A stretch of 64,000 bases of DNA from Verrucomicrobiota bacterium (GCA_016871575.1 VHCW01000001.1:35731-99730), one strand, 5' to 3'. Shown: positions 36,182 to 54,567, numbered from the stretch's first letter. Numbers and translations are program-made. Notes: generated by a model from the letters alone, not told the origin.

Positions 36182-36220
36182 GCTATTCGCTGTTGCGCTG
36201 TTGCGCTGTTGCGCTGTTGC
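36182..36220. repeat. 8-bp tandem repeat, (gctgttgc)x4 plus one degenerate copy, in the upstream region of the low-GC gene.
   Basis: Read directly: cgctattcgctgttgcgctgttgcgctgttgcgctgttgccagag. A second repeat, atttttgctgct x2, lies at 36295..36318. Confidence 0.8.
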
Positions 36221-36326
36221 CAGAGATGAAGCGTGTCATTTCATTTGTCTCCGGTCGGCATCTATAAGGCTCCGGTTTCCCAAAAGTCAATGTTATTTTT
36301 GCTGCTATTTTTGCTGCTGGCAAATC

Positions 36327-43157: not shown

Positions 43158-44648
43158 TCAGGACGCAGGCGGCGCGACACTGGCGTCTTCTGTTCCCTCG
43201 GAAACGGGTGGTGCAGGAGCCGCTTCCTTCACCGGCGTATCGGGAGCCGGTGCCGGGTCTGGTGGCGCCAGTTCAGTTTCAGGTTTCGATTCTGGTTTGG
43301 CCTCAGCCGGCGGCTTGTTCTCCAACGCCCAGAGCCGGCCGTCGGCGAACTCGACGACGCTGCCTTCCATGATCAGCCAGTGCAGGTCGGCCATGAACCG
43401 GTCTTGATCGGCGATCTGGAGGTTGTCGGCAAGCTGTTTGCGGACGCTGTCGGGATGAGCGCGGAGGAAGGTGATGATCTTCTGGATCTGGTCGCTCAGG
43501 CCGTCGAGGCTCTCGACGCGTTTCGGTTTGATGTGGCTGACGTAGGTGACGCCTTTGCGGTGCTTGAAGAAGTGGAAACCATCGGGCCGGAGCCGGTCGC
43601 TGAGGGTCTGGGCGCTGCGCAACGGAAACCGCCATTCGCTGACGAAGGCGATACGCAACGCTTCACTCAGGGCCACCCATGTTTGTTGACGGCTGGCAAC
43701 GCCGCTGATCTGGAGTTCCGTGTTGCTGGTGACAAGCGCGTCCAGGTGTGTTTCGGCGAGGTGTTTCTCGACTTCCTCGCGCGAGGCGAACGCTTTCGGT
43801 TCGGGACAGAGGAGGCAGTGGAACTCGGTGACGAAGCTCTTGGACTCGACCCATTGTTTGACGACGGCTTCGTCCTTGACGGTCTGGATGCGGGAGCGGA
43901 ATTCGTCGAACGACATGTGCCGGAGGCGGCGTTGGTGGAAGCGGACGATGGTGGCCTGGTAGTCGTGGTAGTTGGACGGACCGAAGATTTCGCCGGTGAT
44001 GCTGCAACGGTTGACGGAAGCGAAGTTGCCTTTCGGCGGGTCGCAGGGTTTCTTTTCGGCGCGACAAAGTTTGTCGGCGTGCCGGCGGAAGACGTGGCGC
44101 AACGCCTCGTCCTTGCTTTGGAAAACGGTTTCGTCGGCGAGCGCGAGGAACAACGGGGCGCGCGTGCCGTCGGCGCCGGGCTTGAGGGCGAGTTTGAGGA
44201 CGTGGCGCTCGGGTTTGTTGAGGATGAGCTTGGCGACGTCGAAGAGGGCGTAGGCGCGCGGCGAATGTTTCATCGTCTCGATCATTGCGGCGAGGCCCTT
44301 TTCTTCGGGGAGGAAACTGATCTCGACGTTGGCCGGAGCGGGTGGCCTTCGCTCGATGGGCGGAGCCGGTCGGCGTTCCATTGGGCGATGTCCTTCGCGT
44401 CCGGGCGGGCGGTCGCGGCGCGGCGGTCCGCCTTCGCGGCGGGGTGGCCGGTCTCCCGGTGGCCGCGGCGGACGATCACCCTGTGGCCGCGGTGGGCGGC
44501 GGTCGCGGTCGCCTCGGTCGCGGCGGGGCCGGTCGGGATCCTCGCCGGCGTGGTTTTCGTAGGATTTGGGTGCGGACTTGAGCCATTCCGGAACGATGTT
44601 AAGTTCGTCCAGAGGCAAAGATTGGTTGTCGGGATTCGGCGTGGTCAT
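43158..44648 (-). CDS. Hypothetical protein with an Arg/Pro/Asp-rich low-complexity N-terminal region.
   Basis: RDRGDRDRRPPRPQGDRPPRPPGDRPPRREGGPPRRDRPPGREG imperfect repeats. The C-terminal ~330 aa are of ordinary composition. Confidence 0.5.
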   Translation of the reverse strand: MTTPNPDNQSLPLDELNIVPEWLKSAPKSYENHAGEDPDRPRRDRGDRDRRPPRPQGDRPPRPPGDRPPRREGGPPRRDRPPGREGHRPMERRPAPPIERRPPAPANVEISFLPEEKGLAAMIETMKHSPRAYALFDVAKLILNKPERHVLKLALKPGADGTRAPLFLALADETVFQSKDEALRHVFRRHADKLCRAEKKPCDPPKGNFASVNRCSITGEIFGPSNYHDYQATIVRFHQRRLRHMSFDEFRSRIQTVKDEAVVKQWVESKSFVTEFHCLLCPEPKAFASREEVEKHLAETHLDALVTSNTELQISGVASRQQTWVALSEALRIAFVSEWRFPLRSAQTLSDRLRPDGFHFFKHRKGVTYVSHIKPKRVESLDGLSDQIQKIITFLRAHPDSVRKQLADNLQIADQDRFMADLHWLIMEGSVVEFADGRLWALENKPPAEAKPESKPETELAPPDPAPAPDTPVKEAAPAPPVSEGTEDASVAPPAS

Positions 44649-44725: not shown

Positions 44726-44801
44726 GGGGGTGTAGCTCATTTGGTAGAGCGCCTCGTTCGCAACGAGGAGGTAAGGGGTTCGAGTCCCCTCACCTCCACC
44801 A
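44726..44801 (+). tRNA. tRNA-Ala (anticodon CGC), with an encoded CCA end.
   Basis: GGGGGUG acceptor stem with a G3:U70 pair, anticodon loop UUCGCAA, T-loop UUCGAGU. The cloverleaf folds cleanly by hand. Confidence 0.85.
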
Positions 44802-45956: not shown

Positions 45957-46751
45957 ATGGCAATTCATCCGACAGCGATTGTGAGTCCGCGGGCTGAGCT
46001 TGATCCGACCGTGGAGGTGGGACCCTATGTGATCATCGAGGACAACGTGCGCATCGGCGCGGGCACGCGCGTGATGGCGCGCGCGTTCCTGACCGGCCAC
46101 ACGGAGATCGGGCGTGATAACCAGATCCACATGGGCGCCGTGATCGGGCACGAGCCGCAGGACGTGAAGTTCACGCCGTCCACGCTCAGTTATCTGCGGA
46201 TCGGCGACCGCAACATTTTCCGCGAGTACTGCACGGTGCATCGCGCCACGGATCCGGAGAGCGCGACCATCATCGGCAACGATTGTTTCCTGATGGCCAC
46301 CGCGCACGTCGGGCACAATTGCGTGATCGGCAACCAGGTGATCATCTGCAACGGCGCGCTGGTGGCGGGCTACGTGCACGTCGGCGACCGCGCCTTTTTG
46401 TCAGGCTGCGTGCTGATTCACCAGTTCACGCACATCGGGCGGCTGGCGATGTTTTCCGGCGGCGCGCGCGTCTCGATGGACGTGCCGCCGTTCACGCTGG
46501 CGGCGGAACGCAACGAGGTGCACGCGCTGAACCTGATCGGCCTGAAGCGCGCCGGCCTCAACCCGCCAACCATCACGGAGTTGAAGAAACTGTTCCGTCT
46601 TTTCTACCACTCCGGCTTGAACGGGACACAGGCGTTGGCCGAAGCGGCGAAGGATGGGGTTTTTGTGACGGCCGAGGCGAAAGAGTTTATTGATTTTGTG
46701 AAGCGCTCCCCGAACGGGATTTGCCCGGGGCCGGCGCAGGCTGCTCATTGA
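45957..46751 (+). CDS. lpxA: Acyl-ACP--UDP-N-acetylglucosamine O-acyltransferase.
   Basis: MAIHPTAIVSP...; hexapeptide repeats; 264 aa. Confidence 0.85.
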   Translation: MAIHPTAIVSPRAELDPTVEVGPYVIIEDNVRIGAGTRVMARAFLTGHTEIGRDNQIHMGAVIGHEPQDVKFTPSTLSYLRIGDRNIFREYCTVHRATDPESATIIGNDCFLMATAHVGHNCVIGNQVIICNGALVAGYVHVGDRAFLSGCVLIHQFTHIGRLAMFSGGARVSMDVPPFTLAAERNEVHALNLIGLKRAGLNPPTITELKKLFRLFYHSGLNGTQALAEAAKDGVFVTAEAKEFIDFVKRSPNGICPGPAQAAH

Positions 46752-48672
46752 GCGGCGTCTTGGCGCGCATCTCCGCCAATCGTTGGTCGCGTTCCTGTTT
46801 TTCCCGGAACTTGGCAAGCGCCTCGGCGGCATTGTCGCGCACAAGGCTGTTGTCGTCGTTGAGGGCGCGGCTGAGCAACGGTTGCGCGGCAGGATCGCCA
46901 ATCTGACCCAATGCCCATATGACAGCCGCGCGGACGCGCGCTTCCTTCTCGCGATCGCGCCGCCATGCGGTGACGCCTGTGCCGGAGCCGTCTTGGATGA
47001 CGAGGCCGGCCGTGCCCTGCTGCGTAAGCTGTTCGTAATAGACGCGCACGGCGTCTTGGAGGGGATTGACAGCGCGGGAATCGCCGATGTGGCCAAGCGA
47101 GTAGGCGGCTGTGGCTTGAAGTTCAATGCTGGTGGATTTCAATCCGTGCTTGATGAGCGGCTCGACTGCTTCGGGGGAGCGCAATTCACCGAGGGCGGTG
47201 GCCACAACGCCTTTTTGTTTGATCACGTCGAGTTTGATTTTATCGGCAAGAATGTCGTTCTTCGTTTTCAGGACAAGGCCAGCCTCCCCACCGTCGGGCG
47301 CGTCGAGTTTTGTCAGCAGCGCAATCAATGCAGGCACGGCAGAACGGTCGCCGAGTTTGCCGAGGGCCTCGGCCGCGGCGCTGCGGACGAAACTGTTCTC
47401 GTCGTGCAACAACGGGATCAGCTTGGACGTGGCATCCTTCTCTTGCAGGCGGCCAATCGCTCGCGTGGCCGCGGCGCGGACATGGGGATTGGCGTCGTTG
47501 AGCTTGTCCATCAATGTTTTCGCGCCCGTGCGCTCGCCGATTTTCTGCAGCGCGTCCACAGCCGCCAATCGCACGATGGGGCTGGGGTCGTTGATGGCTT
47601 CGTTGACCGCCGTCAGTTGGTTCGTGCCACCAAGGGCGCCGAACACATCCATGATTTGCCCGCGCACCTCGGCGTGGGAATTGGTAAGGTGTTTCGTCAA
47701 TTCCGGCAACGCCCCAATGCAGCGCCCCGCACACATGGCCCTCGTCGCATGAAAGGAGACGTTGCGATCGTCTGAGACCATCGAGTCCACCAAGGCTTTC
47801 ACGGTTTGGTCGGCATTGGCAAAAGTGAGCGCATCGGCGGCGCGGTCACGGACAAGGGCAAATTCGTCGGAACGCAGGATGTCAATGATGGCCTCCGAAA
47901 TCTTCGCTTGGGAAGAAACCGGTCCATTGCGTGTTCCCAGCGCGGACACAGCCGCCGCGCGCACGTGCCAATCGGTATCCTTCAAGGCTGTCTCCAACGC
48001 CTTGATGGCCTCCGGACTCTTGTATGCCGACAGGGCGCCGGCCGCCGCGGTGCGCACTTCGACACTGGGATCCTGCAGGCGCTTGATAAATGCCTGCTCG
48101 CTGGTTGGGTCGCGTTTGACGGAGGCTGCCCGAACCGCCTCCATTCGCACCATCGCGTTCTCATCGTCCATGGCGCCAATCAAGGTGGGCAGGATATTCT
48201 TGTCACCGGTCCGCCCAAGCGTGGCAACGGCCAACCGCCGAACTTCGGGCCGTTGGTCTTTGAGTGCTGCAATGTCGGCGGGCGCCAGAACAATCTGTCG
48301 CAATCGGACGAGCGCACCTGAGGCCGCCATGCGTACTGATTCACTGTCATCCTGCAACAATGACCAGAGCAGCGTGGCGCCGCCCTGTTCGCCCAGTTCC
48401 GCAAGCAAAAGAATCACGAGCAGCCGAATTTCGCTTCGCGTGTCTTTGGCCAGTTGCGCCAAGACCTCGATGGCACGGGGCGCATTTTCCAGTTTGCCTT
48501 GGATTTCCTTGACGGCCTCGGATGGGTATTGCTCGCTGAAATGACACTGGCGATAGGCGCGCTCCAGCCGCTTGTCCACCGGCGCTGCAGCATGACTGGC
48601 CAATGCCATCCCGGCGATGAGAAATAGCATGACACGCCAAGAACGGGACGGAGATGACAAAAACAGGTTCAT
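46687..48672 (-). CDS. Secreted HEAT-repeat (PBS-lyase HEAT-like) protein.
   Basis: Signal peptide, then many repeats of ..VR..A..ALG.. spacing. Its 3' end overlaps the 3' end of lpxA by 65 nt (convergent). Confidence 0.6.
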   Translation of the reverse strand: MNLFLSSPSRSWRVMLFLIAGMALASHAAAPVDKRLERAYRQCHFSEQYPSEAVKEIQGKLENAPRAIEVLAQLAKDTRSEIRLLVILLLAELGEQGGATLLWSLLQDDSESVRMAASGALVRLRQIVLAPADIAALKDQRPEVRRLAVATLGRTGDKNILPTLIGAMDDENAMVRMEAVRAASVKRDPTSEQAFIKRLQDPSVEVRTAAAGALSAYKSPEAIKALETALKDTDWHVRAAAVSALGTRNGPVSSQAKISEAIIDILRSDEFALVRDRAADALTFANADQTVKALVDSMVSDDRNVSFHATRAMCAGRCIGALPELTKHLTNSHAEVRGQIMDVFGALGGTNQLTAVNEAINDPSPIVRLAAVDALQKIGERTGAKTLMDKLNDANPHVRAAATRAIGRLQEKDATSKLIPLLHDENSFVRSAAAEALGKLGDRSAVPALIALLTKLDAPDGGEAGLVLKTKNDILADKIKLDVIKQKGVVATALGELRSPEAVEPLIKHGLKSTSIELQATAAYSLGHIGDSRAVNPLQDAVRVYYEQLTQQGTAGLVIQDGSGTGVTAWRRDREKEARVRAAVIWALGQIGDPAAQPLLSRALNDDNSLVRDNAAEALAKFREKQERDQRLAEMRAKTPLNEQPAPAPGKSRSGSASQNQ

Positions 48673-49703
48673 TGCGGGTACCCCGGTCCGCGTTTGATCC
48701 GTCCGATGCCCTTGGACACGGCGTGCGTGAGTCGCGGCAGCCCCTTGTCGAGAAATTCCTTCGGCAACATGGTCGTCGCCGTCACAGTGGGACCGTCCAC
48801 TTGGATTTGCGCCCGCTTCAGCGCATCCAATCCCACCATTGATGTTCCGGAGCCGCCGGTGCGGAGCCGTCCCAACCCCAGCCCCATCATGCGCAAGTCG
48901 GAAAGCATCTGGGCCAGGTTGCGCGCTTTTTGCGGGTCGTAACTAAGCGCCACCATCTCAAAGCGGAACGCATCCAGCGAGATTTTGCCCTTGATCAAGA
49001 CAACAGCAATGTACGGGCGGAACTCCTCGGTAAACAGTTTGCCCGGATCCGGCAGAACGGCGATAAACGAAACGGGGTCGTGCAGGTAATTCTCGACGAT
49101 GGGATATTGGCCGGCAATGCCGGCTTCGATGACTTCGCGCTGGCGTTTTTCCACCTCCTTGTTGGCGAGGATCAACACCTCGCGCCCGAGCAAGGACAAT
49201 CCGCGTTGTCCCAAGCTAAAGAACTGCTCGTTGAGAGAACTGCGCCAGTATCCATCGGTGCTGAACCGCGGGAGGTAGGCGGGGACCAGATTGCCAAACA
49301 CATGGATGGCCACGTCGCGCAATTCCCCCTCCGAGCGGAAGGTGATCAGCATCATCGCGATATCGCCGTGGGCCAGCGCCTGTTCGGAGCCGACGGCATG
49401 GCTGAGCGCTTCCTTGATCTGTTCGAGCAACGGCGGGTTGTCCCCGAAAGCCATCTGGAGAAAGGCCGCGGAAAATTCCTTGCGCGCCGGCGTTTTGACA
49501 ATCATTTCATCACGACGGGCGGCTTCCTGGACAGCATCGCGCACTTGCTTGGCTTCCTCGGCCACCCGGCGATAGCGCTGGGAGACATTGAGCGCCAAGC
49601 CGCCGCCGGCAATCAACAGGACAACCAGCAGCGTCCACACCCATGCGCTGATGTTTTTGCCTTTGCGTCCTGCGGGCCTGTTACTACGCGCCGCCATGGT
49701 CAA
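48669..49703 (-). CDS. Hypothetical membrane-anchored protein; a member of the MotA/ExbB-like operon.
   Basis: Single N-terminal transmembrane helix (NISAWVWTLLVVLLIAGGGLAL). Confidence 0.45.
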   Translation of the reverse strand: MTMAARSNRPAGRKGKNISAWVWTLLVVLLIAGGGLALNVSQRYRRVAEEAKQVRDAVQEAARRDEMIVKTPARKEFSAAFLQMAFGDNPPLLEQIKEALSHAVGSEQALAHGDIAMMLITFRSEGELRDVAIHVFGNLVPAYLPRFSTDGYWRSSLNEQFFSLGQRGLSLLGREVLILANKEVEKRQREVIEAGIAGQYPIVENYLHDPVSFIAVLPDPGKLFTEEFRPYIAVVLIKGKISLDAFRFEMVALSYDPQKARNLAQMLSDLRMMGLGLGRLRTGGSGTSMVGLDALKRAQIQVDGPTVTATTMLPKEFLDKGLPRLTHAVSKGIGRIKRGPGYPQ

Positions 49704-49707
49704 CTCG

Positions 49708-50343
49708 TTATTGTACTCCTACAACTTGTCCGCCGGCGCCGAACTTGATCGGCTCATCAATGCCGAGCATTTCCCAACCAGTGTCGAACCCTCGTTCGTC
49801 GGCCAGAAAACGCGCCTTGCGGAACACTTGGAAACTATCATCTCGCACCAGAAATGCAATATACTGTTTCTGCGGGTCCAATTGATTCAGGATGATCTGA
49901 AACTTGCCGGCGGCGCGGTCCACGTCTTCCACGCTCTCGCCGCGCGCCTCCTCGCGGGGTTCCAGCGCCATGATGGCGGTCAACAGATAACTGGGATTGA
50001 CACGGTAATACTCATTGGTCACCTGGCGTCCCAGCAGGGCCTTGAGAAAACCGCTCAAATCGCCGCTGCGAACACCGGGCGTGACGGAGTTCAAAAGCTC
50101 CGCCACCTGGTCGTCCAGCGCGGCTTTGTTGACATTGAACAACTCGTTGTTGCGGCACTCAAAGAAATACGCGGTTTTGCCGGTGACGATGGTCTTGGGC
50201 GTCATGCGCAGTTCGGGCACCTTGGTCGCCTCGAACACCGTGATGATGGTCGCCATGAACAACGCCGAGATCGAAATGGTCAGGATGTCGCAAAACGACG
50301 TCAAGAGCATCTCGGGGTCGCTTTTTTTGATTCTGGCTGCCAT
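49708..50343 (-). CDS. ExbD/TolR-like membrane protein; second copy in the operon.
   Basis: N-terminal ..EMLLTSFCDILTISISALFMATIITV.. resembles the ExbD transmembrane anchor. Confidence 0.4.
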   Translation of the reverse strand: MAARIKKSDPEMLLTSFCDILTISISALFMATIITVFEATKVPELRMTPKTIVTGKTAYFFECRNNELFNVNKAALDDQVAELLNSVTPGVRSGDLSGFLKALLGRQVTNEYYRVNPSYLLTAIMALEPREEARGESVEDVDRAAGKFQIILNQLDPQKQYIAFLVRDDSFQVFRKARFLADERGFDTGWEMLGIDEPIKFGAGGQVVGVQ

Positions 50344-50349
50344 GCCTCG

Positions 50350-50847
50350 CTATTCCTCCACGACACCCAGGGAGCGGAGCGCTTCGCTCCAGTTCACCTT
50401 GAAGTCCGCGTCAATCACATCATAACCGATGTCAATCGGTCGTTTGCCCAACAGACTCCGCACGGTGCGGTACAAATCAATGGACTTCGGGCGCACCATC
50501 ACGATCACATACTCCTCTTCCCGTTTTTCCTGAATCTTATCCAGCATCTTCTCCAACTCGTTGCCGGGGCGTTGGAGGTTCTCCCAGGTCAACTTTTTGC
50601 TGCCGGGGTAGAGCATGATATACTCGGGGCCGCAATCAATGTACGAGGGCACTTTGGGGTTGTGCGGCGATGACCGGCTGCTGCTGAATAATTTGAAGGA
50701 AACCACCTTGACCAGTTTCGGGTTCAGCGCGATGCGCAACGCGATGACGAACAGGATCAGGCAGATCAAGCCTGTCACGATGGACATGACAGACAGGAAT
50801 CCGGTGACATCCAGATCCGTCTTCATCTTGGTGCGTTTTCTGGCCAC
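50350..50847 (-). CDS. ExbD/TolR-like biopolymer transport protein.
   Basis: ..LDVTGFLSVMSIVTGLICLILFVIAL.. and a C-terminal ..EYVIVMVRPKSIDLYRTVRSLLG.. resembling the ExbD periplasmic domain. Confidence 0.5.
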   Translation of the reverse strand: MARKRTKMKTDLDVTGFLSVMSIVTGLICLILFVIALRIALNPKLVKVVSFKLFSSSRSSPHNPKVPSYIDCGPEYIMLYPGSKKLTWENLQRPGNELEKMLDKIQEKREEEYVIVMVRPKSIDLYRTVRSLLGKRPIDIGYDVIDADFKVNWSEALRSLGVVEE

Positions 50848-50868
50848 GAGAAGAACGTCTCCGTCAGG

Positions 50869-52698
50869 TTAGTCTTCGGCCCGGGTTTCCTGGAACACCA
50901 CCTTGCGCGGCCGCGACAACTGCCGCAACAACTCGTCGCTGGCCGAGAGGTGCGTCCGCAGGTTCGCCAGTGTCTGGCGGAACTCGTCAGAACTGCCAAC
51001 CTGCCGCAGCGTGGTTTCCACCGATTGCGTGGTGCGCAGCACCTTGTCAATTTCGATGCCAATCCGTTGGATGGATTGGAGTTGCTCGTTGAGCGAGTCC
51101 ACGGAAGCCTGGATGCGCCCGCTGTAATTCGCGGAAGCGGCATCCATGGTGCTCACCGCCTGCTTGAAGGTGTCTCCCAGTTGCAGTGCCAGTTTGTTGA
51201 AGTCGGCGACCATTTTCTCCCAGCGCGTGATTTCCTTCCGGTCCAACTCCGCAATGGCGCTCAGGTATTTCTCGTGGGCCTCGGCAAACTGGACGGACTG
51301 GCCCCGGCTGACCGTGGCGATTTGCTCGGACAACTGCTGGAACCGATCGGACGACTTCAAATCGGTTTTTGCCTGAAGTTCCAGATAACGCTCCTGCGCC
51401 CTGCGGAATTCATCGGGCATCTGGAGGGACAATCGCTTCATTTCGTCCATCAGTCCGTTCATGCGGGCAACCTGTCGCTCCTCCATTTCGGTCAATGATT
51501 GTCCCATCTTTTGGGACTGTTCGTTGAGTTGCTGGGCCAGGCACTGGGTGCCCAGATGGAACGCATTGGCGACGCCTTCCAGTTTGACGCCAAGCTGCGA
51601 CCCCAATTCGCCGACGCGCCGCTCGTAGTTTTGCGCAAATTCATCGTACTTCTGGTTGATGAGATCGCCGGCCTTGGTGATGGCCCGCGTGAAAACTTCC
51701 TCGTAGCGGTCGGGATTCGGCAACCGGCGAAAACCGGCGTCAATGGCTTGGGCCAATTCCTCGATGGGGAACTTCTGTTGCGCCGTGACGCTTTCGATTC
51801 CCTGGCGAATCGCCTGCGCCATTTCTTCAATGGGGAACGCGTTTTTGGTCAGCTCCGATTCCGTTGGCAGACGCAAGACGAGGCTGTTCTCGGTCAACTC
51901 GTCAATGGACTCCATCATCCCTTCCTCGACCTTTTCCATCACCAAGCTGCTGAACGCCGCGATGGTGGCAAAAATCAGGCCCAACAACGTCGTGTAAAAC
52001 GCCACGCCAAGGCCCGTTGTGATCAAGCCGACTTGCACCTTGATCGCTTCCGGCGTGACCGCGCCCTGCAAGAAGCCAGCAAAATTGCTGACCGCCAAGC
52101 TCACGCCGTACACCGTCCCGATGAACCCCAATACCGGCAGTGCCCAGATGAACAAGCGATTCAGACGGAACGAGGTGTCAGAAGCCGCAGCGTCCAACTC
52201 GGATTCCTCCTTGGCCATGTCCGCGGCGCGGTCCGAGCTTTGCGTGTTCACATACACGGACAAGACGCGCGTGACGCGGGTATAACAGATGCTCTCGGTC
52301 AACTCCGTGTTCGCGGTGAGCCTCTCGAAGGCCATCACCACTTCTTCCATGTTGCGCAAATTCAAATTGGCAGGCACCACTTCCCCTTCTGTCCGGGCCC
52401 GTTCCTTGCGCACGCGGAGCATCTTCAGGATGATGCCTACGACGGAAACCGCCCACATAAAGGTGATCAAGAAAGTGAAGACAGCGTTGTTGGGATCCCA
52501 ATTCGGCTTGCCTTCCTTCAAGGCCGCCTCCGCCGCGTGTCCGATAAACACGTCGCGCACGAACGAATTGGCTGGCAACGGCCACAACGCGCCAAAGATC
52601 ACAAGGGCAAGGGCAAGCCCTCCTCCCAGCATGATTGCAAGAGACACGCTTGTTGTGGGGCGTTTATGTGTTGGAAACTCAGCTTTATATGTAGCCAT
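50869..52698 (-). CDS. MotA/TolQ/ExbB proton-channel family protein with a ~350-aa C-terminal coiled-coil extension.
   Basis: ..LPVLGFIGTVYGVSLAVSNFA.. MotA/ExbB signature helix. The C-terminal half is heptad-rich (EE/QQ/LL). Confidence 0.68.
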   Translation of the reverse strand: MATYKAEFPTHKRPTTSVSLAIMLGGGLALALVIFGALWPLPANSFVRDVFIGHAAEAALKEGKPNWDPNNAVFTFLITFMWAVSVVGIILKMLRVRKERARTEGEVVPANLNLRNMEEVVMAFERLTANTELTESICYTRVTRVLSVYVNTQSSDRAADMAKEESELDAAASDTSFRLNRLFIWALPVLGFIGTVYGVSLAVSNFAGFLQGAVTPEAIKVQVGLITTGLGVAFYTTLLGLIFATIAAFSSLVMEKVEEGMMESIDELTENSLVLRLPTESELTKNAFPIEEMAQAIRQGIESVTAQQKFPIEELAQAIDAGFRRLPNPDRYEEVFTRAITKAGDLINQKYDEFAQNYERRVGELGSQLGVKLEGVANAFHLGTQCLAQQLNEQSQKMGQSLTEMEERQVARMNGLMDEMKRLSLQMPDEFRRAQERYLELQAKTDLKSSDRFQQLSEQIATVSRGQSVQFAEAHEKYLSAIAELDRKEITRWEKMVADFNKLALQLGDTFKQAVSTMDAASANYSGRIQASVDSLNEQLQSIQRIGIEIDKVLRTTQSVETTLRQVGSSDEFRQTLANLRTHLSASDELLRQLSRPRKVVFQETRAED

Positions 52699-52807
52699 GG
52701 TGGTCTGACTCCTGTTGCTTGATTCAACGTCTCAATTCTGCCAGATGAACACTCGCTCGTAACCTCTTGTTACATTCCTTTAACAAACCGATTACGGCAT
52801 GTCAACG

Positions 52808-52834
52808 CCCAACTTTCCCAACTTTCCCAACTTT
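52808..52834. repeat. 9-bp direct repeat (cccaacttt x3) roughly 110-135 bp upstream of the MotA/ExbB-like gene.
   Basis: Read directly: gcccaactttcccaactttcccaactttgggc. Confidence 0.8.
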
Positions 52835-53212
52835 GGGCGCGGTGGCGGTCGTAGGCTTTCTGAAAGTCGGCGGGATCGAGGAAGGCGAACACGTGCAACT
52901 TGCGCCCTTCCATGCGGTCTTTGCGGTTGACGAAAAATTCCCGAATCTCCGCGTAAAACTTCTCACAGCGCCGGGCGATCATGTCGCCGTGCGCGCAGCA
53001 ATGGATGACGAAGTGCTCGGTCTCGCCGTTTTTCCCCAGTCGGTGATCTGCTTGTCGGAAAGCTGCTCGAACGGTTTCTCGTCGCGATAGGCATTGCGGG
53101 CTGGCGGCATGGCCGGTGCGGCAGCGGCAGTGGAGGCGGAAGGCTTGAGCCGCTTCTCGCCTTCCGACACAACCTTCAAATCGCCGGCCGTGCGGCCCCT
53201 GGCGACGATGTG

Positions 53213-53476
53213 CTACTTGACGGCCACGTCCGAAAGAGGCGACGGCGCCATGCTGAGCAGTTTGATCGTCAATGCAACCTTCTGCGTGCGCTCGGCCACC
53301 TCCGGGGTGTACTGCTTTCCGCCCGGCACTGGTGTGACTGTGCCGCGCTTCTTGACCACACGGGAACTCTCTTCCTTCTTCTCCGCGTTCACCTGGACCG
53401 GCAACAATCCCTGCGCCGCCGAGCCTGATACCAAAAGCCAAGCGGCCAGCAATACGAACAAGATGTGTCGTGTCAT
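53213..53476 (-). CDS. Small secreted hypothetical protein.
   Basis: Signal peptide MTRHILFVLLAAWLLVSGSAAQG; Lys/Glu-rich mature part. Confidence 0.4.
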   Translation of the reverse strand: MTRHILFVLLAAWLLVSGSAAQGLLPVQVNAEKKEESSRVVKKRGTVTPVPGGKQYTPEVAERTQKVALTIKLLSMAPSPLSDVAVK

Positions 53477-53499
53477 GTCCCGTCCTCTTGTTGAATGCG

Positions 53500-54567
53500 T
53501 CAATTGACGGTTGAGGCCAAACGTTTGTTGTAATCATCCGTCATCAATGCCTCGATCAACTCCTCCAAATCCCCCTGCAAAATCGCCGGGAGATTCTGGA
53601 TGGTCAAGTTGATGCGGTGATCGGTCACGCGGTTCTGGGGAAAGTTGTAGGTGCGAATCTTCTCGCTGCGGTCGCCGGTGCCGACCTGGTCGCGCCGCGT
53701 CGCCGACATCCTCGCGGCCTCCTCTTCCTGTTTGTGGGCGAGGAGGCGCGAACGGAGAACGCGCAGCGCCTTGTTCTTGTTCTTGAGCTGGCTGCGCTCG
53801 TCGGCGCAACGAACGGTGACGCCGGTGGGTTTGTGGACGATGCGCACGGCGCTGTCGGTGGTGTTCACGCCCTGGCCGCCGGGGCCGCCGGCGCGGCAGA
53901 CGCTGATGTCGAGGTCTTCGGGCTTCAACTGGATGTCCACGTCCTCCGCTTCGGGCAACACGGCGACCGTGGCCGCCGAGGTGTGGATGCGGCCTTGCGC
54001 CTCGGTCTCGGGGACGCGCTGGACGCGGTGAACGCCGCTTTCGTAACGCATCTTCTTGAAGACGTCCTGACCGTTGACGGAGAAGATGATTTCCTTGAAG
54101 CCGCCGCGTTCGCTGGGGCTGGTGTCCATGATCTCGACCTTCCAGCCTTGGGTGTCGGCGAACTTGTTGTACATCCGGAAGAGGTCGCCGGCAAACAAGG
54201 CCGCTTCCTCGCCCCCGGTGCCGGCGCGGATCTCGACGATGGTGTTCCGTGAATCGTTGGGATCCGGCGGAACAAGGCCACGTTGAACGTCGCGGTCGGC
54301 GCGTTCGAGGTCTCGTCGGAGCGGTTCCAGTTCGGACTTCGCCAGTTCGCCCAGTTCCGGGTCGGCGACGAGTTTCTCGTTTTCGGCGATTTGTTTCTGG
54401 AGCGCCTGCCAACGGTCGGCATCGGCAAGGAGCTTGCGGACGCGCTGGAGTTCGCGCGCGAGGTCGCCGGCGCGGCGCTGGTCGGCGAAGACGGCGGGAT
54501 TGGACAACTCGGCTTCGAGGTCGCCGGCGCGTTTGCGGAACCGGTCCAGGTTGGGCAGGGCGTTCAT
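53500..54567 (-). CDS. prfA: Peptide chain release factor 1.
   Basis: GGQGVN (the GGQ motif) and a P-E-T tripeptide (RF1-type PxT). Confidence 0.9.
   Translation of the reverse strand: MNALPNLDRFRKRAGDLEAELSNPAVFADQRRAGDLARELQRVRKLLADADRWQALQKQIAENEKLVADPELGELAKSELEPLRRDLERADRDVQRGLVPPDPNDSRNTIVEIRAGTGGEEAALFAGDLFRMYNKFADTQGWKVEIMDTSPSERGGFKEIIFSVNGQDVFKKMRYESGVHRVQRVPETEAQGRIHTSAATVAVLPEAEDVDIQLKPEDLDISVCRAGGPGGQGVNTTDSAVRIVHKPTGVTVRCADERSQLKNKNKALRVLRSRLLAHKQEEEAARMSATRRDQVGTGDRSEKIRTYNFPQNRVTDHRINLTIQNLPAILQGDLEELIEALMTDDYNKRLASTVN

What the first reader, a model, noticed from the sequence alone, without database searches (positions are those of the whole stretch)
46687..52850. Five-gene MotA/ExbB-like operon with a long coiled-coil tail, two ExbD-like proteins, a membrane protein and a secreted HEAT-repeat protein, preceded by a 9-bp x3 direct repeat
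The 609-aa first protein has a MotA/TolQ/ExbB channel core (LPVLGFIGTVYGV) and an unusually long (~350 aa) helical C-terminal extension. It is followed by two small single-transmembrane ExbD/TolR-like proteins, a bitopic protein and a 661-aa secreted HEAT-repeat protein. All are co-oriented with short gaps. No TonB, TolA/B or flagellar partners are present. The long-tailed MotA architecture recalls ZorA of Zorya anti-phage systems and gliding/Agl-type motors, but no ZorC/ZorD-like nuclease or helicase follows. Upstream lies cccaacttt x3 (52808..52834), a plausible regulator binding array. This is a candidate proton-motive-force-driven envelope machine of unknown function.
Basis: partly seen in the sequence, partly recalled or inferred. 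Interest (0 to 1): 0.55.

Follow-up and report, generated by a model that had tools for sequence, protein, structure and literature searches.

The report
Long-tailed proton motor operon, function unknown
This is a real five-gene operon in an uncultured Verrucomicrobia bacterium; its first three genes (a MotA/ExbB-like channel with a long internal tail and two very divergent ExbD-like partners) form an unnamed module also found in Kiritimatiellia, Lentisphaerota and Cyanobacteria, it behaves like a housekeeping gene set and not like the Zorya phage defence, and its function is unknown.

Summary
**Observation.** It is confirmed. Five tightly packed minus-strand genes (46687..52698) encode:
- a 609-aa, 4-TM MotA/ExbB-fold protein with a ~350-aa helical cytoplasmic tail;
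- two small bitopic paralogs (165 and 211 aa);
- a 344-aa bitopic protein;
- a 661-aa exported HEAT-repeat protein.

The 9-bp x3 repeat is exact.

**What it is.**
- The core is the first three genes. This triad was kept in all 42 related PVC (Planctomycetes-Verrucomicrobia-Chlamydiae superphylum) loci that extend past g1, and recurs in Cyanobacteria.
- Genes 4 and 5 are a Verrucomicrobiia-only add-on.
- The small proteins are remote ExbD/TolR relatives, below Pfam detection. One (g3) always keeps the transmembrane Asp. The other (g2) usually has Ser at that position.
- The tail is as conserved as the channel, including a C-terminal PRxxxFxE motif shared with cyanobacterial homologs.
- No Zorya model, effector or peptidoglycan-binding domain is present.
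- The locus sits next to lpxA-thiF in 18 of 28 relatives, which fits a vertically inherited housekeeping system.

**Most likely mechanism.** A proton-driven A5:B:B' rotary unit, extended in the periplasm by g4/g5, with the conserved tail as its cytoplasmic coupling arm. The function is unknown.

**The repeat.** It is lineage-specific. It lies in a decayed gene remnant directly upstream of a conserved -35 box, and nothing here supports a regulatory role.

**Unverified lead.** Synechocystis sll0477-0479 (iron-induced, "ExbB-like | HP | HP") may belong to the same family.

The parts
50869..52698 (-). g1: A subunit, 609 aa. It has a 4-TM MotA/TolQ/ExbB-fold channel core (about aa 1-270), a linker with two FPxEE(L/M)AQAI repeats, and a cytoplasmic helical tail (aa about 329-594) ending in the conserved LSRPRKVVFQE motif.
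50350..50847 (-). g2: B subunit type 1, 165 aa, bitopic. It is remotely ExbD/TolR-like and has Ser19 where ExbD carries the transmembrane Asp.
   Evidence: No Pfam match. Profile against E. coli ExbD: 83.6%, E 8e-6. Paralog of g3. Ser at this position in 28/28 Verrucomicrobiia sequences; Asp only in 9 sequences of the Kiritimatiellia/Lentisphaerota-type group.
49708..50343 (-). g3: B subunit type 2, 211 aa, bitopic. It is ExbD-like with an insertion of about 50 aa and an invariant transmembrane Asp19 (FCD).
   Evidence: 4 of 20 family members match Pfam ExbD, best E 0.0017. g3 homologs were the only phmmer hits of E. coli ExbD among 2624 ORFs. Asp is invariant in 45/45 sequences.
48669..49703 (-). 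g4: 344-aa bitopic membrane protein with a periplasmic alpha/beta domain of no recognisable fold. It is a Verrucomicrobiia-specific accessory.
46687..48672 (-). g5: 661-aa exported HEAT-repeat protein. It is a Verrucomicrobiia-specific accessory. Its 3' end overlaps the convergent lpxA gene by 65 nt.
   Evidence: HEAT_2 E 1.6e-86 with 8 stretches. The signal peptide and the conserved mature N-terminus ADPKLxxAYxRLHF are present in the full-length homologs.
52777..52805 (-). Putative sigma-70-type promoter of the operon: TTGACA (52805..52800), a 17-nt spacer, and TAAAGG (52782..52777).
   Evidence: A TTGAC(A/T/C)-N16-17-TAnnAT element lies 100-200 nt upstream of g1 in most related loci. In the window the -10 is weak and fails the consensus scan. 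The promoter is inferred, not shown.
52808..52834 (-). 9-bp x3 perfect direct repeat (AAAGTTGGG on the gene strand), ending 2 nt before the -35 box. It is lineage-specific.
   Evidence: Identical in three other metagenome contigs. Absent from all other related loci. It lies inside the remnant ORF 52770..52982.

Best explanation
**What it is.** The operon encodes an inner-membrane, proton-motive-force-driven motor of the MotA/ExbB/TolQ '5:2' kind. It belongs to a distinct and so far unnamed family.

**Core module.**
- The core is three genes: g1, g2 and g3.
- g1 would form the pentameric channel ring. Its conserved ~350-residue helical tail extends into the cytoplasm.
- g2 and g3 are two divergent ExbD-like paralogs. 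They would insert their single TM helices into the ring as a heterodimeric axle.
- Only g3 carries the proton-accepting Asp (D19). It would face the conserved Thr residues of g1 (T195 and T227 or T237).
- Proton flow would turn the ring relative to the axle.

**Verrucomicrobiia add-on.** In this class the periplasmic side is extended by g4, a bitopic protein of novel fold, and g5, an exported HEAT-repeat scaffold. They probably tether or couple the ExbD-like domains to an envelope structure.

**The tail.** It occurs wherever the triad was found. I take it to be the cytoplasmic coupling arm, either an output or an input, as in ZorA but without defence effectors.

**Biological role.** The system is a vertically inherited housekeeping envelope machine, not a mobile defence system.

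**What is shown and what is inferred.**
- Shown: gene order, homologies, conservation pattern, topology logic and synteny.
- Inferred: stoichiometry, rotation, which end is the output, and the cellular process served.
For: **g1 belongs to the MotA/ExbB fold.**
- It passes Pfam MotA_ExbB.

**The triad is conserved.**
- g1-g2-g3 is kept in all 42 related PVC loci that extend past g1, across Verrucomicrobiia, Kiritimatiellia and Lentisphaerota.
- It recurs in Cyanobacteria: Gloeothece PCC 7822 and 7424, and Chroococcidiopsis.
- The cyanobacterial small proteins match strongly (g2 HMM E 3e-34, g3 HMM E 2.7e-38).
- It also recurs in other metagenomic lineages.

**g2 and g3 are ExbD-like.**
- They are paralogs of each other.
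- ExbD likeness is weak but consistent.
- The Asp is invariant in g3. The equivalent position in g2 is mostly Ser.

**The tail is under constraint.**
- It is as conserved as the channel.
- The C-terminal PRxxxFxE motif is shared between PVC and Cyanobacteria.

**g4 and g5.**
- They co-occur with the triad in all 27 Verrucomicrobiia loci that reach far enough downstream.
- Both face the periplasm.

**The context is housekeeping.**
- The operon lies between prfA and lpxA/thiF.
- lpxA lies convergent just downstream in 18 of 28 Verrucomicrobiia loci, over g1 identities of 48-73%.
- GC content matches the surroundings.
Against: - There is no experimental datum for any member.
- g2 and g3 do not reach the Pfam ExbD threshold. 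hhalign probability is only 84%, 66% and 12-29%. It covers the TM helix and the first strands only, and the periplasmic fold was not modelled.
- The g1 profile finds no solved ExbB, TolQ, MotA or ZorA chain by sequence.
- Pentamer and heterodimer assembly was not modelled.
- The tail's confidence is moderate (pLDDT 50-76), and its oligomeric state is unknown.
- No cytoplasmic partner is encoded nearby, so the 'coupling arm' role is conjecture.
- g4 has no fold match, so its role is a guess.
Confidence: 0.55

Rival explanations
1. It is a divergent Ton-type energiser: an ExbB-ExbD1-ExbD2 paralog that powers outer-membrane nutrient uptake, for example of iron. g4 or an unlinked TonB would act as the force transducer.
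For: - The core fold is closest to ExbB and TolQ.
- Two ExbD-like genes after an ExbB-like gene is a common Ton layout (general knowledge).
- Cyanobacteria carry the same triad.
- Synechocystis has a three-gene unit sll0477-0479 annotated 'ExbB-like | HP | HP'. It is induced 6.7-fold by iron limitation (PMC4195498) and has been called exbB/exbD3/exbD4 (PMC8634477). It may be a member of this family.
Against: - Membership of sll0477-0479 could not be verified, because the sequence was not obtainable here.
- No TonB, TonB_C domain, Pro-rich linker or TM histidine is present in g4.
- g4 is absent outside Verrucomicrobiia.
- No TonB-dependent transporter lies within 10 kb in the window or in the loci inspected.
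- Canonical ExbB has no 350-aa conserved tail.
Confidence: 0.2
2. It is a Tol-Pal-like envelope-integrity or cell-division motor that substitutes for, or supplements, TolQRA in these phyla. g4/g5 would replace TolA/TolB.
For: - The best Foldseek TM-scores are to TolQ (0.69-0.71).
- The system shows a housekeeping, single-locus, vertically inherited pattern.
- Neighbours are often envelope genes: lpxA, SurA-like, FtsW/RodA, and PAP2 with an ArnT-like PMT_2.
Against: - No TolA, TolB, Pal or CpoB homologs are adjacent.
- The neighbours differ between clades, so the linkage may be incidental.
- g4 shows no TolA-like fold.
- TolQ has no long tail.
- The presence or absence of canonical Tol genes in these genomes was not tested.
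Confidence: 0.13
3. It is a Zorya-like anti-phage system. A ZorA-type tail would signal envelope perturbation to effectors encoded elsewhere.
For: - The long cytoplasmic tail on the A subunit is the hallmark of ZorA.
- There are weak PADLOC and NCBIfam ZorA matches.
Against: - The ZorA scores are 16-23 bits, against a cut-off of 500 for NCBIfam ZorA_4.
- There is no ZorB peptidoglycan-binding domain.
- There is no ZorC, D, E, F or G, and no other PADLOC match beyond generic HEAT.
- The locus keeps a fixed chromosomal position next to lpxA-thiF across relatives of 48-73% identity.
- The three-gene form stands alone among housekeeping genes in other phyla.
Confidence: 0.04
4. It is a surface-motility or adhesin-propelling motor of the AglRQS or GldLM type.
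For: - One A subunit with two different B subunits parallels AglR/AglQ/AglS.
- One relative has SprB-repeat proteins 2-7 kb upstream.
Against: - No Glt, Gld or type IX secretion genes are adjacent in any locus.
- The SprB neighbours occur in one clade only.
- The triad is present in unicellular cyanobacteria such as Gloeothece.
Confidence: 0.05

Closest known systems
ZorA/ZorB of Zorya anti-phage systems (e.g. PDB 8QYD, 8VVN)
   Same: - The A subunit has a MotA/ExbB fold and carries a long helical cytoplasmic tail.
   Different: - Zorya HMMs are not met.
- The B subunits are two small ExbD-like paralogs with no peptidoglycan-binding domain.
- There are no ZorC, D, E, F or G effectors.
- The genomic context is housekeeping and syntenic.
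- The tail sequence is strongly conserved, including a terminal PRxxxFxE motif.
ExbB-ExbD (Ton) and TolQ-TolR (Tol-Pal) motors
   Same: - TM3 (LGFxGTVxG) and TM4 (TxGLxxAFxTT) motifs are conserved.
- The B subunits have a TM Asp and an ExbD-like start to the periplasmic domain.
   Different: - g1 has 4 TM helices and a 350-aa tail.
- There is no TonB, TolA, TolB or Pal.
- The B subunits fall below the Pfam ExbD threshold.
- They form a presumably obligate pair in which one member usually lacks the Asp.
AglR-AglQ-AglS gliding motor of Myxococcus
   Same: One TolQ-like A subunit is paired with two different TolR-like B subunits encoded next to it.
   Different: There are no Glt partners. AglR has no long tail. 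No link to motility was seen here.
[quoted passage not shown]
   Same: It occurs in the same phyla. It shares the idea of a TolQ-like ring with a heterologous TolR-like pair and unorthodox periplasmic partners.
   Different: No vWA or TPR genes occur here. The accessory genes are g4, of unknown fold, and a HEAT protein. The long tail is not described for that system.
Synechocystis sll0477-sll0478-sll0479 ('ExbB-like | HP | HP')
   Same: It has a three-gene layout with two unannotated small proteins. Cyanobacteria do carry clear orthologs of g1, g2 and g3.
   Different: If it is a member, its iron-limitation induction (PMC4195498) would be the only physiological clue for the family.

Membership tests
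MotA/TolQ/ExbB proton-channel superfamily (A subunit) | Match to Pfam PF01618 above the gathering score | tested here: met
   31.9 bits against a cut-off of 22.9, over aa 140-250.
MotA/TolQ/ExbB proton-channel superfamily (A subunit) | Fold of the TM core similar to solved ExbB, TolQ, MotA or ZorA | tested here: met
   [not shown]
MotA/TolQ/ExbB proton-channel superfamily (A subunit) | Conserved pore-lining Thr residues in the last two TM helices | tested here: inconclusive
   T195, T227 and T237 are invariant from PVC to Cyanobacteria. Their equivalence to ExbB T148/T181 is inferred from motif similarity, not from a residue-level structural alignment.
MotA/TolQ/ExbB proton-channel superfamily (A subunit) | Pentameric ring enclosing two B-subunit helices | not testable with these tools
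   No multimer prediction was available.
ExbD/TolR (B subunit) | Match to Pfam PF02472 | tested here: not met
   No match for g2 or g3 of the window. 1 of 20 g2-family members matches at E 4.9, and 4 of 20 g3-family members match with best E 0.0017.
ExbD/TolR (B subunit) | Single N-terminal TM helix carrying the essential Asp | tested here: met
   Met for g3: D19 is invariant in 45/45 sequences. Not met for g2 in Verrucomicrobiia: Ser19 in 28/28 sequences, with Asp only in 9 sequences of the Kiritimatiellia/Lentisphaerota-type group.
ExbD/TolR (B subunit) | Profile-level homology to bona fide ExbD | tested here: inconclusive
   hhalign of g2 against E. coli ExbD: 83.6%, E 8e-6, and 66% with a wider profile. 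g3: 12-29%, E 6e-4 to 2e-3. The ExbD sequence was recalled from memory. g3 homologs were the only phmmer hits of ExbD among 2624 ORFs.
ExbD/TolR (B subunit) | ExbD-type alpha/beta periplasmic domain | not tested
Read by eye, the sequence pattern of g2 residues 68-145 fits the ExbD strand-helix order.
Zorya (ZorAB plus effectors) | ZorA family model reached | tested here: not met
   NCBIfam ZorA_4 23 bits against a cut-off of 500. PADLOC ZorA 16-19 bits.
Zorya (ZorAB plus effectors) | ZorB with a peptidoglycan-binding (OmpA-like) domain | tested here: not met
   No Pfam or PADLOC ZorB or OmpA match in g2, g3 or g4.
Zorya (ZorAB plus effectors) | Adjacent ZorC/ZorD, ZorE or ZorF/ZorG | tested here: not met
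   None in the operon or within 10 kb. None in the related loci.
Zorya (ZorAB plus effectors) | Long cytoplasmic tail on the A subunit | tested here: met
   Helices 329-424, 430-567 and 571-594 follow TM4. Cytoplasmic location is inferred from the family topology.
Ton system | Associated TonB: TM helix with His, Pro-rich linker and a TonB_C domain | tested here: not met
   [not shown]
Tol-Pal system | TolA, TolB, Pal (or CpoB) encoded with TolQR | tested here: not met
   Absent from the operon and from the 10-kb flanks.
PVC vWA-transducer motors (PMC12204202) | IM-tethered vWA protein(s) and a TPR gene next to tolQ-like and 2x tolR-like genes | tested here: not met
   No vWA or TPR domains in g4 or g5, or in neighbours in the window and relatives.

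The most novel reading that the evidence does not exclude
The g1-g2-g3 triad defines an ancient, previously unrecognised class of 5:2-type ion-driven motor, shared by Cyanobacteria and the PVC group and probably other phyla. In this class:
- the rotating pentamer carries a sequence-conserved cytoplasmic tail in a housekeeping setting, not a defence one;
- the axle is an obligate heterodimer with a single proton-carrying Asp.

It would be the non-defence counterpart, and possibly a relative, of ZorAB. It would mechanically or conformationally couple the envelope to a cytoplasmic target not yet identified. Verrucomicrobiia would have added a periplasmic module of novel fold (g4) and HEAT repeats (g5).
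Probability: 0.35. Interest if true: 0.75.

Novelty: new variant of a known kind. Interest (0 to 1): 0.55.

Why it matters
Five families of 5:2 ion-driven motors are understood: MotAB, ExbBD, TolQR, GldLM/AglRQS and ZorAB. Each powers a different envelope process.

This locus exposes another conserved family with several unusual features:
- a ZorA-style cytoplasmic tail without any defence effector;
- a two-paralog axle in which only one subunit usually keeps the proton-binding Asp;
- in Verrucomicrobiia, two dedicated periplasmic partners, one of unknown fold.

The core also occurs in Cyanobacteria, some of which can be manipulated genetically. The questions "what does a tailed stator do outside phage defence?" and "can a single-Asp heterodimer drive rotation?" could therefore be tested directly. 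None of g2, g3 or g4 has a Pfam or NCBIfam family, so hundreds of genomes currently list them as hypothetical proteins.

Tried and rejected
- **g2 and g3 profiles against PDB sequences.** Only noise, with ExbD at E 0.69 for g2.
- **g1 profile against PDB sequences.** No motor protein was found.
- **Rfam on 44-56 kb.** Only a tRNA and a sub-threshold twister-sister match inside fabF, which I treat as chance.
- **Promoter and terminator scan.** No consensus promoter was found in the window.
- **The Synechocystis lead.** The Jiang et al. 2015 paper (DOI and PMC4303624) is not held. The transcriptome paper has no supplements held. Membership of sll0477-0479 therefore stays unverified.
- **Neighbours in Kiritimatiellia and Lentisphaerota loci.** XdhC, BrkB-cNMP, 2-hydroxyacid dehydrogenase and SurA-like genes were checked and judged lineage synteny, not part of the system.
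- **Two Methyloceanibacter loci (L047, L048).** They have 27% identity over residues 151-423. Their ORFs looked fragmented, and I did not pursue them.
- **The repeat as a conserved operator.** Rejected, because it is absent in all relatives.

Full report
**1. The observation**

The window carries five co-oriented minus-strand ORFs at exactly the stated coordinates.

| Gene | Coordinates | Length |
|---|---|---|
| g1 | 50869..52698 | 609 aa |
| g2 | 50350..50847 | 165 aa |
| g3 | 49708..50343 | 211 aa |
| g4 | 48669..49703 | 344 aa |
| g5 | 46687..48672 | 661 aa |

- The intergenic gaps are 21, 6 and 4 nt, and g4 and g5 overlap by 4 nt. Terminator-like sites in the region are no more frequent than in shuffled sequence. 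Co-transcription is therefore plausible but not shown.
- The identical g1 protein is annotated as a hypothetical protein of a Verrucomicrobia MAG (P0001).
- The neighbours are housekeeping genes. Upstream lie fabG, acpP, fabF, rpmE and prfA. Downstream, convergent, lie lpxA and a ThiF/rhodanese gene.
- GC content (0.57-0.62) does not differ from the surroundings.

**2. The five proteins**

*g1*
- It passes the Pfam MotA_ExbB gathering score (31.9 against 22.9 bits, residues 140-250).
- It has four hydrophobic segments with a basic N-terminus.
- An AF2 model built on 97 homologs is confident for residues 1-280 (pLDDT about 90). It continues as long helices 329-424, 430-567 and 571-594 at pLDDT 50-76.
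- By sequence it is remote from every solved motor.
- In this superfamily the C-terminus after the last TM helix is cytoplasmic (established from the ExbB, MotA and ZorA structures). The tail is therefore inferred to be cytoplasmic.

*g2 and g3*
- Neither has a Pfam, NCBIfam or PADLOC family.
- They are paralogs of each other (hhalign 98.4%, E 4e-15). g3 carries an insertion of about 50 residues.
- ExbD likeness is weak but consistent:
  - 4 of 20 g3-family members touch Pfam ExbD (best E 0.0017).
  - The g2 profile aligns to ExbD over the TM helix and the first strands (83.6%, E 8e-6; 66% with a wider profile).
- In these alignments ExbD Asp25 falls on g3 Asp19 and on g2 Ser19.
- The Asp is invariant in all 45 g3-type sequences.
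- g2-type sequences have Ser in all 28 Verrucomicrobiia, in 4 sequences of the Kiritimatiellia/Lentisphaerota-type group and in 4 of the 5 cyanobacterial and other triads. They have Asp only in 9 sequences of the Kiritimatiellia/Lentisphaerota-type group.

*g4*
- It is a bitopic protein whose family (133 hits) is uniformly about 340 aa. All named members are Verrucomicrobia or unclassified 'bacterium' MAGs, none has a functional annotation, and the family is highly conserved.
- It has no TonB or TolA feature.

*g5*
- It has a signal peptide, a conserved mature N-terminus and at least 8 HEAT units.

**3. What is conserved**

- A genome scan with the g1 alignment returned 44 loci. Forty-two of them are true g1 relatives: Verrucomicrobiia MAGs (g1 identity 44-73%) and Kiritimatiellia and Lentisphaerota MAGs (33-37%). 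The other two, L047 and L048 from Methyloceanibacter, are weak partial matches without the triad.
- g2 and g3 follow g1 in every related locus that extends past it.
- g4 and g5 follow only in the Verrucomicrobiia loci. Many of those add a g4 paralog, and some add a second HEAT gene.
- In the distant loci nothing else is shared beyond lineage synteny.

A profile search of 1.84 billion representatives found 250 proteins at E <= 1e-30 and 1535 at E <= 1e-10. Most of the best 150 are 350-1000 aa long and match mainly the core. Ten that I sampled are not Zorya (17-58 bits on PADLOC ZorA models).

Context look-ups showed the same triad in Cyanobacteria:
- Gloeothece/Cyanothece PCC 7822 and PCC 7424;
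- Chroococcidiopsis TS-821;
- and, with variations, other metagenomic lineages.

In PCC 7822 the small proteins match the g2 and g3 HMMs at E 3e-34 and 2.7e-38; wider profiles score the small proteins of two metagenomic loci, L057 and L059. The g3-type family has 393 relatives. The named ones among the best 120 are almost all cyanobacterial, and all are 'hypothetical'. No NCBIfam model covers any of them.

**4. The tail**

- Per-block conservation shows that residues 301-360 and 541-600 are as conserved as TM3/TM4.
- AIDAGFRRLPNPDRYEEVF is nearly invariant in PVC.
- The extreme C-terminus, L-S/N-K/R-P-R-x-h-x-h-x-E, is shared with cyanobacterial homologs whose tail is otherwise unrelated and repeat-rich.
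- A 40-residue segment (about 391-430) is an insertion found only in the closest relatives.
- Hydrophobic periodicity is 3.6-3.67 residues, not 3.5.
- This pattern suggests a tail with specific contacts, not a passive spacer. No cytoplasmic partner is encoded nearby.

**5. Defence or housekeeping?**

- PADLOC and NCBIfam Zorya models fail.
- No peptidoglycan-binding ZorB domain and no effector is present.
- lpxA lies convergent just beyond the cluster in 18 of 28 Verrucomicrobiia loci, usually followed by thiF. This holds over g1 identities of 48-73%. Most of the remaining loci end too early to tell.
- This is the signature of long vertical inheritance at a fixed chromosomal site, not of a defence island.

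**6. Mechanism proposed**

By analogy with the solved 5:2 motors, I propose the following. All of it is inferred.
- g1 forms a pentamer around a g2-g3 heterodimer.
- Protons pass via g3 Asp19 and the invariant Thr residues of g1, and drive relative rotation.
- The ExbD-like periplasmic domains, extended in Verrucomicrobiia by g4 and the HEAT protein g5, hold or act on an envelope structure.
- The tail couples the ring to the cytoplasm.

Which side is the output is open. The tail accompanies the triad wherever it was found, so I lean towards the tail being integral to the conserved function.

**7. Rivals**

- **Ton-like energiser.** This is the strongest rival, because of a literature lead. Synechocystis sll0477-0479 is one transcription unit annotated 'ExbB-like | HP | HP'. 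It is induced 6.7-fold under iron limitation (PMC4195498) and is referred to as exbB/exbD3/exbD4 (PMC8634477). I could not obtain the sequences or the primary paper, so membership is unverified.
- **Tol-like, Zorya-like and gliding-motor readings.** These are weaker, for the reasons listed under rival explanations.
- **The vWA/TPR-linked tolQ-like system.** A recently described PVC system combines a tolQ-like gene, a pair of tolR-like genes, vWA transducers and a TPR gene (PMC12204202, section 8). It is conceptually close but has different accessory genes.

**8. The 9-bp repeat**

- It is exact and rare, and it is identical in three other metagenome contigs.
- No related locus has it.
- What is conserved is a TTGAC(A/T/C)-N16-17-TAnnAT element upstream of g1. 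In the window this element is TTGACA (52805..52800) followed by a weak TAAAGG.
- The repeat ends 2 nt before that -35 box. It lies inside the 3' end of a 70-aa ORF that belongs to a disrupted gene remnant, which carries an in-frame stop and a frameshift.
- A regulatory role is possible from its position but is unsupported. A recent slippage product is at least as likely.

**9. Verdict**

The repeat is peripheral.

The system is a new variant of a known kind of machine:
- a conserved, unnamed family of MotA/ExbB-type motors with a ZorA-style tail;
- a two-paralog axle that usually carries a single Asp;
- in Verrucomicrobiia, a module of a novel-fold protein and a HEAT-repeat protein.

Its function is unknown.

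Noticed in passing
window 52770..53503 (-): A disrupted gene remnant lies between prfA and g1. It consists of a signal-peptide ORF (53213..53503), an in-frame TAG, then a frameshift into ...GKNGETEHFVIHCCAHGDMIARRCEKFYAEIREFF..., ending at 52770. It is identical in three other metagenome contigs and has no homolog in related loci. The g1 promoter elements and the 9-bp repeat lie in its 3' end.
   Followed up: partly
L001:9932-9951 and the equivalent positions in 11 other related loci, 63-134 nt (most 63-86) upstream of g1: A conserved 5'-UTR hairpin, CGYTTG-N8-CARRCG. It is 100% paired in 12 loci, with compensatory changes at two pairs, one of them outside the search pattern used to find it. 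It is degenerate in the window and in its closest relatives L005 and L007. It may be a post-transcriptional control element of the operon.
   Followed up: partly
L014:9544-10779, L021:14041-15234, L001:15971-17982 and others: Many Verrucomicrobiia relatives carry a g4 paralog (340-410 aa; hmmsearch E 1e-24 to 1e-6), and some carry a second, shorter HEAT protein after g5. The window lacks both.
   Followed up: partly
window 46687..46751: The 3' end of g5 overlaps the 3' end of the convergent lpxA gene (45957..46751) by 65 nt.
   Followed up: no
L059:6001-9652: A variant triad from an unidentified lineage. The A subunit has an N-terminal zinc ribbon. Both B subunits carry a coiled-coil stalk of about 100 residues after the TM helix. 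The Ser/Asp asymmetry is the same (FLS against LLD). The triad lies next to FtsW/RodA.
   Followed up: partly
L052:4471-11781 and L055:3169-10529 (Gloeothece PCC 7822 and 7424): The cyanobacterial triad is flanked on the same strand by a HAMP-HisKA sensor kinase upstream and by PAP2 and PMT_2 (ArnT-like glycosyltransferase) genes downstream. This is a possible link to the envelope. The arrangement is not conserved in Chroococcidiopsis.
   Followed up: no
window 44726..44798 (+): A tRNA gene (Rfam 69.7 bits) lies immediately upstream of the ThiF/rhodanese gene. The long GTG/TTG-started ORFs listed there overlap it and are probably spurious at their 5' ends.
   Followed up: no
window 36188..36220 and 36294..36318: Two more perfect short tandem repeats, CGCTGTTG x4.1 and a 12-mer x2.1, lie in the lowest-GC stretch of the window (34-36 kb, GC 0.53).
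   Followed up: no
window 43158..44648 (-): A 496-aa protein with a Pro/Arg/Asp-rich repetitive N-terminal third and no Pfam family. Gene callers also call it next to thiF in a sister contig (L050).
   Followed up: no
L047 and L048 (Methyloceanibacter MAGs): A distant MotA-like protein with 27% identity to g1 residues 151-423, reaching into the tail. There are no g2 or g3 homologs nearby, and the ORFs look fragmented.
   Followed up: no
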